From assembly GCA_951406725.2 (NCBI GenBank), contig OX597818.1, forward strand, positions 62,992,001-63,056,000: a stretch of 64,000 nt of DNA, in the 5' to 3' direction. This DNA is from Octopus vulgaris (taxonomy: Eukaryota). Of this stretch, positions 29,754 through 60,256 are shown piece after piece. The translations under genes were made by a program, and so were the position numbers. Position 1 is the stretch's first letter; each line of letters opens with the position of its first letter. The notes under the pieces are model-generated. The model searched no databases. It was not told the origin of the DNA and was given only the letters and a program-made list of their open reading frames with translations.

Positions 29754-30896
29754 TTTACGGTCCGGGGAGGTCATACTAAACCAAAACCTTTTATACAACC
29801 TAGAATCACCCACCCTAATGTCAGAGCTGGCTTCCCGACCCATCACATAAATAGGAATAAACATATCTGGTTTGTAATTCCCTTTGGTAAGCAGATTAGA
29901 ACTAATCTTCCCCTCCTGTTTCGCCAAGCCATTGCCAGTAACTTCCCCAGAAATTCTAAATATTACTCCACGGTTAATTCACATAAAGTTAGGATAGCTT
30001 TCTCCAACACAAAAAACCTTTCCCAGATAATCGCCTCCCATAATAATAGGCTGCTTATTAAGACCCTACCACCATTGTCCGGAGGCGCAGCTCCGTCTAA
30101 TTCCAGTTTAACGCGCAGTAGGAATAATAATAGTAGTAATAATGATAAAAGAGCCAGTACAGTGACTGGTAATCTCAGTACCAACCAGGGAGTAAATAAT
30201 AGGATTAGCGATAGAAGAAATGGTGATCTTAATAACGTTAGTAATGGTAATAAGGAGGTGAGCGCAGTTCGGGTCATTAATGTAGAGAGTCCTAATAGCA
30301 ACTTCAGCATCGTTTCCGGCAATAGCAGGTCCACGGATACTAGCAATTACAGCGTTCTCAGTGATAGGGAATACACAGGGGTTAGTCAGTTAATTAATAG
30401 TGATAATGAGGAGTATAATGTAGTAGGCGGCCGCAGTTCTCACAGTCAATATAGTAACAGAAACGCAGTATTAATATCAGAAGCTAATCCCAATAGAATA
30501 AGGTTCTTGTCTAGTAACTCCAAGATCAGAAATGCCATTTACCAATGCAATGTTTACACGGATTCAGATGTCTACTCGTATGTCGGTGCCTCATCGTCAA
30601 AATTGGCCTTGAGAATATCGAACCATTTCGCAACTTTTTGCGACGTTAATAAATACCAAGCTACAGGACTTAGCAAACTTATCTGGCGTTTGAAGAACGC
30701 GAATTCAGTTTTTAGGCTGGAATGGTCGATTTTGTCGGTGGCCCTCCCGTTTGATAGGGGCAGAAGGAGGAGTAATCTTTGTAACTCTGAGCTTTTCCAC
30801 ATATTGTTCGCCAGAGGCCGTTTGGTAAACGGGCTTTTACAGACGGCTTTTCGATGTCCCCATTGGCGGCGTCATACTTATCTTACATATAAATGA
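29754..30896 (+). pseudogene. Open frame of the PLE linker plus GIY-YIG domain (no start codon; one frameshift from the 29548 frame)
   Basis: The frame of ORF 30075-30896 stays open back to a TAA at 29751-29753. Confidence 0.8.
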
Positions 30897-38038: not shown

Positions 38039-38106
38039 GACATGCTTCTTTCAGTTTCCGTCTACCAAATCCACTCACAAGGCATTGGTCGGCCCGGGGC
38101 TATAGC
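37764..38106 (-). mobile_element. SINE family A, 5'-truncated
   Basis: Tail and body match 8133-8460. Confidence 0.85.
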
Positions 38107-38320
38107 AAACCCTCTATCGTTAATTTTCTTTAGTAGATACAGTCTTTGGATTTTTCCCGTGCTGAGGGCATCATAAACGAGCCTAGTACTTAATTTTAAG
38201 GCTCTTATTCTATCGGCCTCTTTTTGTCGAAATTTTCAGTTACGGGAACGTAAACATAATAACACCGGCTGTCCAGCAGGGGCGGAGGCAGATACAGCAC
38301 ATAGAGAGGGACACACACTT

Positions 38321-41092: not shown

Positions 41093-41291
41093 ACTCTCTT
41101 TACTCTTTTACACTTTTACTTGTTTCAGTCATTTGACTGCGGCCATGCTGGAGCACCGCCTTTAGTCGATCAAATCGACCCCGGTAATTATTCTATCGGT
41201 CTCTTTTGCCGAACCGCTAAGTTACGGGGACGTAAACACACCAGCATCGGCTGTCAAGCAATGCTAGGGGGAAAATTACAGACACACAAAC

Positions 41292-41344
<53 letters not shown>

Positions 41345-41484
41345 TACGACATGCTTCTTTCAGTTTCCGTCTACCAAATCCACTCACAAGGCATTGGTCG
41401 GCCCGGGGCTATAGCAGAATACACTTGCCCAATATGCCACGCAGTGGGACTTAACCCGGAACCATGTGGTTGGTTAGCAAGCTA
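41093..41484 (-). mobile_element. SINE family A, 3' part; head interrupted and resuming at 43702-43738
   Basis: Ends ...ACCATGTGGTTGGTTAGCAAGCTA; resumes GTTAGCAAGCTACTTACCACACAGCCACTCCTGCGCC. Confidence 0.92.
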
Positions 41485-43701
41485 ATTTATTTCAAAACAT
41501 TTGCCATAAAGGCAGTACACAGATTAAGTTAGCTTTGCGGGCTGGACGAGGACATTAATGAGGTGAATGATAATGAAAGAAAGATGATAAGGATGGGAGA
41601 AGACAATTGCTACTTGCTTCTCTAAAACATTGTTCTTTTTAAAGATAAACACAAAACGAGGTATTAAACCTCTTACAATTTTCCCAATTTTTGGACTTAG
41701 CAGTCCATTATTAATACAAAACGAGGTATTAATCCCCTTACAAATTTTCAATTTTTGGACTTAAGTCCATTACTAATAATACATATCGTCCTCGAAATAG
41801 CTTGTGCCCGCGCCCTCCACCATCAACCACGCCTCCCTCAGAACGTAATCAAGTTCCGAGTTCACGTCACCCGGGACCAAGTTATAATCTTCATTGAGCT
41901 CCTTTAGCCTAAGCCTCACGTCGAACGCCACGGCCTCCACAGCTACCTGCGGAGGCCATTCGGGGTCCTGTGTGAAGGCTAAAGGTGCTCCCTTGTATTG
42001 CTCTTCCATCACTTTTTTCAATTTCTCCTCCTCTATAGAAGAGGACCAATACGTTCAGTTCTTTCGTTGGCGGCACAGTTCCCGCCAACGGTATTCCTTC
42101 TCTTGTCGGTGGCACAACCCCAACAGACGTAGTTCCGGGACATTCCGGTGCTACACTGACAGCCGGTAATGTCCCGTTTTTCATCCTCTTTTTCTTTTTT
42201 TCCCTTTTCAACTGAGGGAGGGTGCGTCTCCTCCGTGGCTGGAAGATTCGCCTTCCTCTCCTCATCCCTATTATCCTTTGGTGAGCACCCATTGTTGCTC
42301 ACCTTCCTCTTTCAGCCTCTGTTTGAGGAGTCCTCTGCTTTCTCGGCCGTTATCGTTCCCTCTTCTAGAGGGGTTTTACTTAACTGTTCCGGGATCCTAT
42401 TTTGTTCCCGAGGACAGTTCTTCTTTATGTGGCCGGACTCCAAGCACCGATGACACTTAGGGGGGCGACCCTCAAGCATCACCGGGTACCTGCACCCGGC
42501 CATTTTCAAAAAATCTGGAAGAACCAGATTGGCTGATTGGGTCCACAGGGTCAAAATTGCTTTTGACCCAACCCAAGCAGCCGCAGGAAGAACTTTTACA
42601 TTGAGGAGCTTAGTTTCGCTGTCACCCAGACCCCGGCGGATGGTCACCTCTATCCACTCGGGTTCTATGTCAGGTGGCAATCCGCATATCCAAGCTTTCA
42701 TCAATTTCTTTTTTTGTACGTGGGCAGGAATAAGATTTCCCTACCCACCAGGGGTTTGCTAGCAAATTTGCAAGCCTCTTCAGGGGTGTCAAATAGCAAC
42801 CACACCGTTGCATATTTGACACCCCTGGAAATGAATTTAATTGTTGGCAAATACTCTTCCAACTCCTCCTCAATTGCCGTCTTTTCGAATAAGGCGATGG
42901 TGTCGAGTGCCTTGGAGTAGGTTCTCAACACCACCGTCCTATCTTCACGGTCTTTTAACCACTTTTTAGGTGGTATGATTTCCCACTCCAAAATTTTGTT
43001 ATTTTTCATTGCCATGTTTTTTTAAAAATATATTCAAATTAAACTCAAAAAGCAGGAAGAAAAAAGTTCAAAAGTCCAAATAAAATTTGATAGATTTTGA
43101 AAAAACAAAAAGTAGAAAGCACAACATAAGGGAAGAAATCAACGGAAAGTCGCAATAAAGAAAAAAACAAAAGGGGGGGGGTAAATGAAGTTCAAAAGAA
43201 AGTTAATAAACAGAAAAAACACAGCAAAAATATTCTGGCCTTGCGGTACTCCCGGCCTGGGTTGAACCTGGAACGCCGCAACTGCAACACAACCTCCACA
43301 AAAATGGGTCCGAAAGGTAATCCAATAGTGGCTTATTTTTATAATTTTCTTGCGAAGTAGTAGTTTTCACAATTCATAAAAGTTCTTCACAGCACAATAC
43401 AATTCTCACAATTACGTGAGAAAAATATTTACTCAATTTATCGAAGACGGATACGCCCCCCAACATTTTCTCAGCGAGAAAAATATATTTGCCACATGTC
43501 GGCAGAATCAGAATTCTGAATCCAGTAGGACTTCCTGCCTGTAAAAAACAAGTTTCAACAAAAACTCCCACTGGACACAGAAAACAGAATCTTACCTTAC
43601 ATGGGGCTTCCAAAGTTTTCAATTCAAGACGGCTTCAATAGCACATCTTCACCGCTTCAGTGCCAAACACAACACTGACTCGCACATACGCAGAAGCAAC
43701 C
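41485..43701 (-). mobile_element. ORF1-only Tx1/L1-type non-autonomous retroelement with 12-bp TSD
   Basis: TSD GTTAGCAAGCTA at 41473-41484 and 43702-43713; single disrupted ORF; ends AATAAAT; no EN or RT motifs. Confidence 0.8.
41773..43015 (-). pseudogene. Disrupted ORF1-like protein (RRM-like region plus CCHC zinc knuckle), about 410 aa when reconstructed
   Basis: ORFs 42701-43015, 42312-42704, 42033-42302 and 41773-42021 join through two frameshifts and one TGA; motifs WICGLPPDI and EGRPPKCHRCLESGHIKKNCP (CX2CX4HX4C). Confidence 0.8.
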
Positions 43702-44057
43702 GTTAGCAAGCTACTTACCACACAGCCACTCCTGCGCCTTATTCTAACTATTGCCTTATTCTAATTTTGTTCCTTCTGATAAACTTAGTAAAATTACGTT
43801 ATCTATTTATTCATTGTTTATTTTCTCTTTATCTAAGAGACAATATAGTTTATAGTTATCGTAGCTCTACGTTCTTGTTTACTTATTTACGGAGATTTTC
43901 CCCCTCATAAACCAACTATACTGGTATTTTTTTTACTTGTTAGTTACTTAAAATAATGCTTATATCAGTAAGAATAAATAAATGAGAGAAGTTATTTGAT
44001 ACTATCATTATATATAATATGTTATTTACATTATTTACATTTCACGGATATTTGCCT

Positions 44058-44175
44058 TCATCTTGTTTGTTGTTAGCATAACGTTTCGGCTGATATACCT
44101 TCCAACCTTCCCCAAGACACCTGATGAAGGCTTGAGGGTATATCAGCGGAAACGTGTGAACAACAAACAAGATGA
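44058..44175. mobile_element. Short palindromic element with hammerhead motif
   Basis: CATCTTGTTTGTTGTT...ACGTTTCGGCTGATATACC...CCTTC is inverted against GAAGG...GGTATATCAGCGGAAACGT...AACAACAAACAAGATG; core CTGATGA at 44121 and GAAAC at 44149. Confidence 0.75.
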
Positions 44176-45573
44176 GGATATTTTATCAAATAGATGGCAA
44201 CTTGGACATAATTCTACGGTACCTCGGAATTGCTCTTTGACACCACTAATATACGCAAATATTAAATTAGGTACCTGATGTATGGGGAAAAACCTTCAAC
44301 ATGACTCGAGGACAGGAAATTAGGGCATGCCAACTGTATGGTGGAATATCTCAGCGACCTTAAGTTTTTGCTGAAGTTGACATACTATGATAACAAACAG
44401 ACACAAAATAAGCGAAATAAAGACTAGAAAATTCCAAAATTCACGTAATTCTTCAGAACCTATCTTGATCAAAATCGCTACACACAAAACTCTGGTTCAG
44501 AAAAAAATATGCATTTGGAACAGTTTGAAGGAACGTTGGTCCCAATTCCACTTTGCCTCATGATAGTGCTCAATTTCATTTCGGTTACCTAAGCCACTGT
44601 TTGTATATAACATTAACAAGCACGCTATTAACTAACGCACATGTTAAACAAGGTTCAAGTCTAAGCCTGTCACCTCAGAGATAATCTCTATAATGTTTGA
44701 GCATCCTGACCTGTTACTGTCATAATCCCATTCTTCATTCCGGAGATATATCTTCCGCGGTTTATAAGTTTTACTTTCCCCGTTATTTCTGTTACACGTT
44801 GCTGTAGCAACTGAGAAATAAAAGCAGAAGATTGTTTCATAAACTGAACACTTATAGGGTCTCTATGGGTGGTCTTTTCCGTCATCAAAATATTCCTTTT
44901 GGGAAGAAACCTGAACGTTCCTGTCAATGATTTGTCATATGACGTTAAGATCTTAATACAAACGTGATCCAGCTGTCTACCGAGAGACATTCAAACTTCA
45001 CTCAGATAATGACTTACATGGAAAGTAATGAGCGTTATTGGCATATTTAATGCTTATATCACATTTATAAGAATTCTACATTCATCGAAATCTTTTTGTT
45101 ATCATTTACTGGGATTGTGCAATAGATATACAAAAGGCTTCTTATATTTTAATGCTTATACCGATCATTGAGAAATATTGATCTCCGTATTATTTCGATG
45201 TATGTGTATGCATTGAAGGTGTCTAATTCTCTGGACTAAACGTTTCGACAATTTCTATGGTTGAGAAATTCATGACATGAAAACCTATTATATTTTGGCA
45301 AACGAAAGTCCATCCCAGAATGGAACACTGCTCGCATAAAGCGACTTTGTTTAAATATATTCTATCAACAGTTGAAAAAGAACAGAATTGAATGGGCAGT
45401 TAGGAAGATGATCTCTTATCCATCCGTTTTTCTGTCAATAGAATGCTGCAGTCTTTACCCTTTTATGTTGTTATTTCTAATGCAGTTTGTTCAGATGAGA
45501 TTAAATAACTGAAACGAAAAATTATGAAACGCTAATCGTTAACAAAGTTTCTTTGAGCATATATACAGCAGAA

Positions 45574-46984: not shown

Positions 46985-47382
46985 TTCTTTTACATGATTC
47001 AGTCATTTGACTGCGATCATGCTGGGGCACTGCCTTTAGTCGACATCCGGGTTTATTCTTTGTAGGCCTAGTACTTATTATATCGGTAACATTTTGCCCA
47101 ACTGCTAAGTTACAGATAGGTCAACACACCAACATTGTTTGTCAAGCGATCGTGGGGGACAAAAAATAGACACACAAACACACACGCACACACACACACA
47201 TATATATTTAAACATATATACGACGGGCTTCTTTCAGTTTTCACCTACCAAATTTACTCAGAAGCTTTTGGACGGCCCGTGGCTATAGTTGAAGGCACCT
47301 GAACAAAGTCATACGCAGTGGGACTTAACCCGTAATCATGTGGTTGGGAAGCAAGCACCTTACCATACAGCCACGCCTGCGC
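46985..47382 (-). mobile_element. SINE family A, diverged
   Basis: Colinear with 8133-8556. Confidence 0.8.
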
Positions 47383-47750: not shown

Positions 47751-47866
47751 TCTCAGTGTTTTGAAAATAAACGATTGTTTTGTGGAGACACAAGTTAGCC
47801 AAAAAAAGGACGAAGACGGTTAGTTTCAATTTAACACTATATTGTTTCCATTATATGTCAAAATTA

Positions 47867-48410
47867 AGGCAGTGTGCTGGCAGAAACGTGGTTGGTAAGC
47901 AGAAAAGGCAGTGTGCTGGCAGAAACGTGGTTGGTAAGCAGAAAAGGCGGTGTGCTGGCAGAAACGTGGTTGGTAAGCAGAAAAGGCGGTGTGCTGGCAG
48001 AAACGTGGTTGGTAAGCAGAAAAGGCGGTGGGCTGGCAGAAACGTGGCTGGTAAGCAGAAAAGGCGGTGTGCTGGCAGAAACGTGGTTGGTAAGCAGAAA
48101 AGGCGGTGTGCTGGCAGAAACGTGGTTGGTAAGCAGAAAAGGCGGTGTGCTGGCAGAAACGTGGCTGGTAAGCAGAAAAGGCGGTGTGCTGGCAGAAACG
48201 TGGTTGGTAAGCAGAAAAGGCGGTGTGCTGGCAGAAACGTGGCTGGTAAGCAGAAAAGGCGGTGTGCTGGCAGAAACGTGGTTGGTAAGCAGAAAAGGCG
48301 GTGTGCTGGCAGAAACGTTGCTGGTAAGCAGAAAAGGCGGTGTGCTGGCAGAAACGTGGCTGGTAAGCAGAAAAGGCGGTGTGCTGGCAGAAACGTGGCT
48401 GGTAAGAAAA
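47867..48410. repeat. 39-bp minisatellite, about 14 copies
   Basis: Unit AGGCGGTGTGCTGGCAGAAACGTGGTTGGTAAGCAGAAA; 13-aa periodicity in the ORF track; about 1.7 further units at 48620-48676. Confidence 0.97.
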
Positions 48411-48689
48411 GCTAGTTAACACACACCCACTCCTGCACCTATATAATCACGCACATACATTTCAAAACGGAGATCAACTAATTCTGCTTGTTCAATGTAT
48501 AGAAAAACCGAAGATGTTAAGCAATCTAATTTATATCTATATTTTAAATCATTGGTGTAGTGCATGTATCATATCAACTGAAAATATAACTAGTGGAACC
48601 CTGAAGACGTTCTGTGAAAGAAACGTGGCTGGTAAGCAGAAAAGGCGGTGTGCTGGCAGAAACGTGGCTGGTAAGTAAGCTAGTTACCA

Positions 48690-49076
48690 CTTGTTTACCA
48701 GCCGCATGGTTCCGGGTTCAGTCCCACTGCGTGGCACCTTGGGCGAGTGTCTTCTACTATAGCCTCGGGCCGACCAAAGCCTTGTGAGTGGATTTGGAAG
48801 ACGGGAACTGAAAGAAGCCCGTTGTTTATATGTATATATATATATATGCGTGTGTGTGTTTGTGTGTCTGTGTTTGTCCCCCTAGCATTGCTTAACAACC
48901 GATGCTGGCGAGTTTATGTCCCCGTTACTTAGCGGTTCGGCAAAACAGACTGATAGAATAAGTACTGGGCTTACAAAAAGAATAAGTACCCGGGGTCGAG
49001 TTGCTCGATTAAAGGCGGTGCTCCAGCATGGCCGCGGTCAAATGACTGAAACAAGTAAAAGATAAAAGATAAAAGA
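48690..49076 (+). mobile_element. SINE family A lacking its extreme 5' end
   Basis: CTTGTTTACCAGCCGCATGGTTCCGGGTTCAGTCCC through to the GATAAAA tail. Confidence 0.88.
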
Positions 49077-60049: not shown

Positions 60050-60171
60050 ATATACGATGGGCTTCTTTCAGTTTCCGTCTACCAAATCCACTCACAAGGC
60101 TTTGGTCGGCCCGAGGCTATAGCAGAAGACACTTGCCCAAGGTGCCACGCAGTGGGACTGAACCCGGAACC

Positions 60172-60211
<40 letters not shown>

Positions 60212-60256
60212 GTGGTTGGTTAGCAAGCTACTTACCACACAGCCACTCCTGCGCCT
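60050..60256 (-). mobile_element. SINE family A 5' half with a (TA)n run inside the tRNA head
   Basis: GAACC|TAAATATA...ATAA|TGTGGTTGG. Confidence 0.85.

What the first reader, a model, noticed from the sequence alone, without database searches (positions are those of the whole stretch)
41473..43738. Complete, TSD-bounded retroelement encoding only ORF1, inserted in the tRNA head of a SINE
Seen: a 2217-bp insert is flanked by an exact 12-bp duplication (GTTAGCAAGCTA) that splits SINE A just 3' of its A box. It has a ~690-bp 5' UTR, one ORF of about 410 codons (RRM-like region plus CX2CX4HX4C knuckle, now with 3 lesions) and a ~290-bp 3' UTR ending AATAAAT. There is no endonuclease or RT sequence. 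Known: this ORF1 architecture is typical of Tx1/L1 LINEs; mammalian HAL1 elements are ORF1-only parasites; several Tx1 lineages are sequence-specific for small-RNA genes or repeats. Inference: a HAL1-like non-autonomous family in a cephalopod, possibly targeting a high-copy SINE. Ordinary 5' truncation would remove ORF1 and keep ORF2, the opposite of what is seen.
Basis: partly seen in the sequence, partly recalled or inferred. Interest (0 to 1): 0.8.

Follow-up and report, generated by a model that had tools for sequence, protein, structure and literature searches.

The report
ORF1-only retrotransposon homing into octopus SINE
This is one decayed copy of a multi-copy jumping-gene family, likely from an octopus, that carries only a predicted RNA-binding protein; its copies turn up repeatedly at one spot of a very common short repeat, likely placed there by enzymes borrowed from a full-length relative.

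Summary
Observation confirmed. An exact 12-bp duplication bounds a 2217-bp insert that splits a SINE head; other SINE copies in the window show the empty site. The insert has a 686-nt 5' UTR, one broken ORF of about 414 codons (four lesions, not three), a 288-nt 3' UTR and no RT or endonuclease. A close octopus homolog folds as two RRMs plus a CCHC knuckle (type I ORF1p, unlike HAL1's type II).

Public contigs show a multi-copy family. Two UTR variants join the ORF1 stop directly to the 3' UTR, so this is not a one-off deletion. Of 9 listed pieces reaching the 3' end, 7 continue into the same SINE site. One of them is a different element that shares only the last ~90 nt.

Best reading: a non-autonomous, ORF1-only LINE family moved in trans by a site-specific, probably Tx1-type LINE. 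I did not see that partner. Tail-target pairing and SINE-tail sharing were not significant here. The scan has already noted this system on at least twelve other stretches of this genome; eight paper searches listed no description. New variant of known kinds.

The parts
43714..43739 (-). 5' part of the host SINE head, with A-box-like TGGCTGTGTGG at 43718-43728
   Evidence: aligns with the heads of other SINE copies in the window; contigs of four runs leave the stretch at 43739, the SINE's 5' end (table 7)
43702..43713 (-). upstream copy of the 12-bp target-site duplication (TAGCTTGCTAAC on the element's strand)
   Evidence: exact match
43016..43701 (-). 5' UTR, 686 nt; promoter not identified
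   Evidence: sequence; covered by contigs in 4 of 4 runs, at lower summed depth than the ORF
42456..43015 (-). ORF1 N-terminal part, two predicted RRM domains; frameshift in the T-run near 42710
   Evidence: 72% and 75% identical to O. sinensis LOC115225585, which reads through this point; model of that homolog matches RRMs in both halves
42414..42455 (-). CX2CX4HX4C zinc knuckle (CHRCLESGHIKKNC)
   Evidence: Pfam zf-CCHC E 0.002, under the curated cut-off; 15 of 45 aligned homologs match zf-CCHC at E<=0.5
42012..42413 (-). low-complexity, charged and proline-rich ORF1 linker with a premature stop (42312-42314) and frameshifts near 42198 and 42015
   Evidence: other copies differ at these places in 4 of 4 runs (tables 3 and 4)
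41773..42011 (-). ORF1 C-terminal segment of about 80 aa with the stop codon; no known family
   Evidence: 7 of 12 segregating changes synonymous; diverged relatives continue in frame past 41934 (table 7); no match
41485..41772 (-). 3' UTR, 288 nt, with a ~65-bp tandem duplication (41645-41778) and a terminal ~100-nt tail shared with other elements; ends AATAAAT
   Evidence: tables 2, 5, 7, 8
41473..41484 (-). downstream copy of the target-site duplication
   Evidence: exact match
41095..41472 (-). remainder of the host SINE: B-box-like GGGTTAAGTCCC at 41446-41457, body, (TA)/(TG) microsatellite and tail
   Evidence: BLAST matches of 70-91% to ten other stretches of the window; alignment

Best explanation
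This is a decayed copy of a multi-copy family of retrotransposons that encode only an ORF1-type protein (predicted: two RRMs and a zinc knuckle) and recur at one position in the head of an abundant SINE, likely inserted there by target-primed reverse transcription with the ORF2 protein of a site-specific, probably Tx1-type, full-length LINE. Shown: the TSD, the empty site, multiple copies, the direct ORF1-stop-to-3'UTR join in two variants, repeated 3' junctions into the same SINE site, and a ~90-nt tail shared with a different element at that site. Inferred: the element is transcribed whole; its ORF1p coats its own RNA or co-assembles with the partner's ORF1p; the partner's ORF2p recognises the shared tail; its endonuclease nicks the SINE on one strand after TAGCTTGCTAAC and on the other 12 nt upstream after GGTAAG, which gives the 12-bp TSD and a fixed orientation. 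The downstream junction (TAAAT-TAGCTTGCTAAC-CAACC) keeps most of the site, so later copies could stack there. The SINE would act as an abundant, harmless landing pad.
For: Family. 20 of 24 listed runs, from 9 studies and 4 organism labels, hold 27-60% of the insert's words. All 30 bins are covered in 4 of 4 runs. In X1 the summed depth over the 28 inner bins is 1.1e4-2.4e5, against 33-148 for the 8 listed single pieces (the tool warns that this is no copy number). ORF1-only. X6 piece 21 spans 41654-41935 across the stop without gaps (8 differences, depth 75); X17 piece 14 spans 41687-41829. A second variant with one UTR unit joins 41714/41716 to 41778/41780 in X1 and X17 and shows as a loose end in X9. 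Targeting. With only 18 nt of SINE flank offered, 9 of 32 listed pieces reach 41490 or lower. Six run 5-18 letters into the TSD and SINE (1-18 differences from this copy), one has a loose end that reads as a SINE variant at the same site, one ends there, and one goes on in letters not shown. The window has 11 recognisable heads in 64 kb, so random insertion would hit this base and orientation about once in 10,000. Shared tail. X17 piece 10 matches only 41490-41579 and has other sequence upstream. Coding constraint. 12 of 22 segregating changes are synonymous against 22-29% expected (binomial P 0.014 at 30%); 5 of 14 for changes private to this copy. Protein class. Precedents: PMC5786205 and PMC4494074.
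Against: No autonomous partner, RT or endonuclease was seen in any call, so trans-mobilisation and the Tx1 label are inferred. No listed contig spans the whole element, and the 5' junction could not be read because SINE contigs swamped. Table 8 lists the longest pieces (32 of about 1,620), which favours pieces that extend into the offered flank; table 7 showed 24 of 220 loose-end rows, so ORF2-type or off-target ends may be among those hidden. Flank-to-tail depth is only 22% in X1 and 33% in X17 (59% in X9, 110% in X6), and SINE-only contigs may add to it. The junction pieces have fewer than the 31 letters per side that the tool asks for a bridge. The synonymous excess rests on 36 displayed rows, and the two classes do not differ from each other (Fisher P 0.32). 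The element tail is not significantly like the SINE tail (613 of 1000 shuffles score as well).
Confidence: 0.75

Rival explanations
1. One early insertion made a SINE-ORF1-SINE composite, which then spread as a unit (by retrotransposition from the SINE's own 3' end or by DNA duplication). The shared junction would be inherited, not hit repeatedly.
For: A near-identical junction piece at depth 439.5 in X6 fits either model. I could not compare the host SINE halves of different copies.
Against: Junction pieces differ from this copy by up to 18 letters in 140. X17 piece 10 has a different upstream sequence and sits in a SINE variant (AAGCTTGCTTCC) like a free copy in this window (GTGCTTGCTTCC at 47346-47358). 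The two TSD copies here are still identical, while the host head is 8-14% apart from its four closest neighbours.
Confidence: 0.08
2. Same family and site, but the site is chosen or secured by base pairing: a motif in the RNA tail (41525-41538) pairs with the target strand or with read-through SINE sequence.
For: The tail holds GCAAAGCTAACTTA, which resembles the reverse complement of the site (GCAAGCTACTTA). With read-through flank the predicted fold pairs the two. Alignment score reached by 96 of 2000 shuffles; duplex with the TSD alone by 50 of 1000. Note e1-8667107 claims covariation.
Against: Duplex energies with the 18- and 24-nt site are ordinary (193 and 462 of 1000 shuffles). Five other 100-nt tiles of the element pair better with the 18-mer, and 17 of 35 other SINE 18-mers pair better with the tail. 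The fold's z-score is -0.72. Covariation was not testable on the rows shown.
Confidence: 0.08
3. An ORF1-only family with only a loose preference: the SINE is hit often because it is abundant or open, and most copies lie elsewhere.
For: Flank-to-tail depth of 22% in X1; X6 piece 18, X9 piece 26 and X17 piece 11 go on in letters that were not shown.
Against: No non-SINE loose end at 41485 is among the 24 best-supported rows. Even 22% is over a thousand times the random expectation for one base.
Confidence: 0.06
4. A one-off internal deletion of an ordinary LINE at this locus, or a processed pseudogene of a host ZCCHC3-like gene.
For: The Atlas lists ZCCHC3-type RNA-binding domain clusters among look-alikes (score 0.90). 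The family depth over ORF1 could come from autonomous copies.
Against: Direct ORF1-to-UTR joins occur in three runs as pieces or joints, in two sequence variants. The 3' UTR is covered in every bin in 4 of 4 runs. Many diverged homologs and contigs point to a repeat family, not a single gene.
Confidence: 0.03

Closest known systems
ORF1-present non-autonomous LINEs: HAL1 (L1 clade), HeT-A (Jockey clade), Ag-Sponge (CR1 clade) (PMC5786205 and PMC5753468, passages read)
   Same: Keeps the 5' part, one ORF1-type protein and a 3' end; lacks ORF2; multi-copy; signs of selection on the protein.
   Different: ORF1p is predicted type I (two RRMs plus CCHC), not the type II of mammalian L1 (types as in PMC5203782, passages). 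No poly(A) tail. Found in octopods. Inserted at one base of a SINE. The passages read list no Tx1-derived member.
Tx1-clade LINEs that target other mobile elements: Tx1 in Tx1D (Xenopus); Tx1-Mar with its passenger SINEU in Mariner-N4_AMi; Tx1-9_AMi in Harbinger (PMC4494074, Introduction whole, other passages)
   Same: Preferential insertion into another repeat at a defined position; passengers share the target of the presumed carrier; RRM/CCHC ORF1 variants are said to be consistent with Tx1 (PMC5203782, passage).
   Different: The target is a SINE head, not a DNA transposon or LTR element. The passenger encodes a protein, whereas SINEU is snRNA-headed and non-coding. Clade membership is not tested here, since no RT was obtained.
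Keno (U2 snRNA-specific Tx1) and other small-RNA-gene-targeting LINEs (PMC4494074, Introduction)
   Same: Site-specific insertion into a sequence derived from a small RNA gene.
   Different: The target here is a dispersed, high-copy SINE head rather than the functional gene, and the element is non-autonomous. Whether real tRNA genes are also hit was not tested.

Membership tests
ORF1-present non-autonomous LINE (class) | encodes an ORF1p-type protein only, no RT or endonuclease | tested here: met
   25 frames of the insert without RT/EN match; two RRMs plus CCHC predicted for the 72-75% identical homolog
ORF1-present non-autonomous LINE (class) | amplified as a family in the ORF2-less form | tested here: met
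   ORF1 stop joined to the 3' UTR in pieces or joints of X1, X6 and X17, two variants; coverage in 4 of 4 runs
ORF1-present non-autonomous LINE (class) | non-LTR insertion signature: TSD, no terminal repeats | tested here: met
   12-bp TSD; no LTR or terminal inverted repeat among the repeats listed or in the self-BLAST
ORF1-present non-autonomous LINE (class) | 5' and 3' parts derived from an identifiable autonomous LINE | tested here: inconclusive
   one different element shares the last ~90 nt (X17 piece 10) but its coding content was not seen; no genome held; metagenome scans empty
HAL1 | derived from mammalian L1, with type II ORF1p (coiled coil, one RRM, CTD; Transposase_22) | tested here: not met
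   model shows two RRM-like domains followed by a CCHC knuckle; Transposase_22 is not among the 25 of 39 families shown for 45 homologs
HAL1 | poly(A) tail as in L1 (feature recalled, from no call) | tested here: not met
   3' end reads TTTTGAAATAAAT, then the TSD
Tx1 clade | RT that groups with Tx1 in a phylogeny; APE endonuclease | not testable with these tools
   the element has neither; no partner ORF2 could be fetched
Tx1 clade | ORF1p with RRM and CCHC domains (type I variants) | tested here: met
   necessary at most, since type I also occurs in other clades (PMC5203782, passages)
Tx1 clade | target preference (Kojima's criterion: one sequence type in over 20% of flanks, PMC4494074) | tested here: met
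   7 of 9 listed 3'-end pieces at the SINE site; flank-to-tail depth 22-110% in four runs; biased sample, not a genome-wide count
tRNA-derived SINE (host) | tRNA-like head with A and B boxes | tested here: inconclusive
   box-like motifs visible in the alignment; no ARAGORN or Rfam tRNA match
LTR retrotransposon or retroviral gag remnant | LTRs, short TSD, capsid-type gag fold | tested here: not met
   no LTR; 12-bp TSD; fold matches are RRM domains

The most novel reading that the evidence does not exclude
Octopus genomes hold a three-tier parasite system: a SINE supplies self-renewing landing sites, a LINE supplies the enzymes, and protein-coding passengers bring their own ORF1p with an unclassified C-terminal domain plus a tail motif antisense to the site, so that site choice is partly RNA-guided and co-evolves with the SINE.
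Probability: 0.1. Interest if true: 0.85.

Novelty: new variant of a known kind. Interest (0 to 1): 0.52.

Why it matters
It joins two known strategies that I did not find joined in print: ORF1-only parasitism and site-specific insertion into another mobile element, here a SINE. That reverses the usual relation in which SINEs only exploit LINEs. The family still shows constraint on ORF1 although it cannot move alone, so it offers many natural copies for asking why a passenger keeps ORF1p (cis-acting packaging or competition for the partner's ORF2p). A precise 12-bp site with many independent events would also help to study how an APE-type endonuclease becomes sequence-specific. For annotation, such copies already appear as octopus 'uncharacterized protein' genes.

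Tried and rejected
No whole genome was held, so copies and flanks could not be counted.

A 24-letter tail pattern found 0 stretches in JGI metagenome contigs. A profile of distant homologs found 422 pattern matches and no confirmed relative. The viral-contig scan did not run because the alignment was too variable.

No RNA holder was listed on record; X6 and X17 are RNA only by guess, so I claim nothing on expression.

The ORF1 C-terminal segment had no match in Pfam, the protein search, the Atlas (best 0.79), or a profile of six homolog C-termini (rank 48 of 430 reported). A resemblance I saw by eye to their C-terminal motif is rejected.

SINE tail versus element tail: not significant (613 of 1000). 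Tail-target pairing: marginal by alignment (96 of 2000), not by duplex energy. Tail fold alone: z -0.12. Rfam gave only sub-threshold matches. Fold matches reach Z 8.7 at best; they show a common RRM arrangement and no specific relative.

Sequence look-ups in earlier findings gave nothing relevant. Bao and Jurka 2010 was not held. Paper searches listed no description of this octopus system. Repbase, most subscription journals and all supplements were not seen, so an existing Repbase entry is not excluded.

Full report
Observation. The 12-mer GTTAGCAAGCTA stands exactly at 41473-41484 and 43702-43713 and bounds 2217 bp. With the insert left out, the two flanks form one SINE head that aligns with other copies in the window; two of them carry the same 12-mer once (34978, 60219). 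Of 11 SINE-head upstream halves found by a fuzzy scan, only this one is followed by this insert. Element and SINE both read on the minus strand, and the insert starts 4 nt after the A-box-like motif. The tRNA origin of the head is inferred from box-like motifs; ARAGORN and Rfam gave no tRNA match. No other copy of the insert lies in the window.

Anatomy. A 686-nt 5' UTR precedes an ORF from ATG 43015 to the stop at 41773, about 414 codons, then a 288-nt 3' UTR with a ~65-bp tandem duplication that ends AATAAAT without poly(A). Other copies differ at all four places in 4 of 4 runs. All three frameshifts lie in T-runs, so assembly error is possible for them. None of 25 frames of 50 aa or more inside the insert matches an RT or endonuclease family.

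Protein. The closest protein is Octopus sinensis LOC115225585 (281 aa, 72-75% identical). A full HMMER search with it gave 46 proteins at E<=0.001. Of 10 looked up, 7 carry names, from O. sinensis, O. vulgaris, O. bimaculoides and Argonauta hians, and 3 are unnamed. None of the 23 scanned at E<=0.01 has an RT or APE domain. The AlphaFold model of that homolog, built on 45 sequences (mean pLDDT 81, pTM 0.60), matches tandem-RRM proteins by Foldseek (best E 1.3e-5). Both halves match single RRMs (residues 14-102, Z 8.7, rmsd 2.8, 82 aligned; 103-183, Z 8.1, rmsd 2.6, 75 aligned). These scores show a common fold, not a specific relative. Atlas look-alikes are CCHC and ZCCHC3-type clusters (0.90-0.92). 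RRM plus CCHC is type I ORF1p; mammalian L1 has type II (PMC5203782, passages). The last ~80 residues match nothing.

Family. No genome was held, so I used public runs. 20 of 24 listed runs hold 27-60% of the insert's words, from 9 studies and 4 organism labels; one may be the window's own source. Contigs cover all 30 bins in 4 of 4 runs, with summed depths far above those of single pieces. The tool says this is no copy number, so I claim only 'multi-copy'. X9 holds pieces with 1 and 4 differences at depth about 475 against 6-12 for its shallowest pieces, which suggests a young subfamily.

ORF1-only is a family trait. I laid four runs on 41467-42006. X6 piece 21 covers 41654-41935 without gaps, with over 100 letters on each side of the stop, 8 differences and depth 75. 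X17 piece 14 covers 41687-41829. A second variant with a single UTR unit joins ORF1's end to 41714-41716 in X1 and X17; an X9 loose end shows it has its own stop two codons earlier. No ORF2-like loose end at the stop is among the 24 rows shown, of 220. Of 36 displayed coding variants (16, 20 further), 12 of 22 segregating ones are synonymous against 22-29% expected (P 0.014 at 30%), and 5 of 14 private ones (P 0.42); the classes do not differ significantly (Fisher P 0.32). This is mild evidence that the protein was used by moving copies.

Targeting. One search offered only 18 nt of SINE flank, which cut the contigs laid in X1 from 73,453 to 1,043. Of 32 listed pieces, 9 reach 41490 or lower. 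Six continue 5-18 letters into the TSD and SINE, one continues into a SINE variant at the same site, one ends, and one goes on unseen. They differ from this copy by 1-18 letters. Flank-to-tail depth is 22%, 59%, 110% and 33% in X1, X9, X6 and X17. Random insertion would hit this base and strand about once in 10,000 (11 heads in 64 kb). Limits: the list favours long pieces, the junction sides are under 31 letters, and the 5' junction was swamped. X17 piece 10 shares only the last ~90 nt (13 differences), has other sequence upstream and sits at the same site. It shows that different elements share tail and target, and it is a candidate for the carrier, whose coding content I could not see. One X6 contig shows non-SINE sequence just after the TSD, which fits stacking but is a single row.

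Mechanism. Shown: TSD, family, ORF1-only structure, repeated junctions, shared tail. Inferred from established non-LTR biology (target choice set mainly by the endonuclease; passengers share tails with carriers; PMC4494074 Introduction): a full-length site-specific LINE supplies ORF2p, recognises the tail, nicks the SINE head with a 12-nt stagger and copies the passenger in. The passenger's ORF1p likely packages its RNA or co-assembles with the carrier's, as proposed for HeT-A, HAL1 and Ag-Sponge (PMC5786205, passage). Confidence 0.75. Rivals: a composite moved as a unit (0.08), pairing-guided targeting (0.08), loose preference (0.06), one-off deletion or pseudogene (0.03).

Results against leads. 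Earlier notes suggested that the tail pairs with the target and that the SINE shares the tail. In this copy the first is marginal (96 of 2000 by alignment; 50, 193 and 462 of 1000 by duplex energy) and the second is not significant (613 of 1000). A single decayed copy is a weak test, so neither is excluded.

Comparison and novelty. It works like HAL1, HeT-A and Ag-Sponge but is not HAL1 (type I ORF1p, no poly(A)). It targets like Tx1-Mar with SINEU, but the target is a SINE and the passenger encodes a protein. Tx1 membership is untested; L1-Tx1 elements are reported in coleoid genomes (PMC8967140, passages). Eight paper searches listed no description of this system. I read PMC4494074 (Introduction whole, other passages) and passages of PMC5753468, PMC5786205, PMC5203782 and PMC8967140; other papers only as search listings, no supplements. 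Bao and Jurka 2010 was not held. The scan has noted the same system on at least twelve other stretches of this genome; those are unchecked AI notes and count as leads only. Several report a full-length partner at the same site, which I could not test. Verdict: real, a new variant of known kinds, interest 0.52.

Noticed in passing
window 47866-48406 and about 48620-48700: A 39-bp minisatellite (13.9 copies) begins inside a SINE head on the minus strand at about the same position as the target site. Its unit holds GCTTACCAGCCACG, like the SINE's GCTTACCAACCAC. A further unit and a half abuts a headless SINE in the opposite orientation near 48690.
   Followed up: partly
window 29754-30896 (+): A 380-aa open frame that looks by eye like the end of a Penelope-type element (recalled resemblance); no Pfam match at E<=0.05.
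   Followed up: partly
window 44058-44178: A 53-nt inverted repeat pair (72% complementary, 17-nt perfect outer arms), MITE-like, 350 bp from the element.
   Followed up: no
P0014 (O. sinensis XP_029639579.1): A gene model in which a piece like the first 45 residues of this ORF1 is joined to an integrase core; likely a chimeric annotation across two mobile elements.
   Followed up: no
window 41935-41988: Contig depth peaks over the YKGAPLAFTQDPEWPPQVAVE-coding stretch in X1, X9 and X6, and loose ends beyond 41934 read in frame as diverged relatives: a larger set of families shares this unclassified C-terminal motif.
   Followed up: partly
window 38041-38107 versus 41350-41416: A 5'-truncated SINE copy is 100% identical over 67 nt to the host SINE here, including its private changes, which suggests a local duplication or conversion.
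   Followed up: no
window 60061-60256: A SINE copy with an intact target site carries a (TA)n insertion 9 nt downstream of the site.
   Followed up: no
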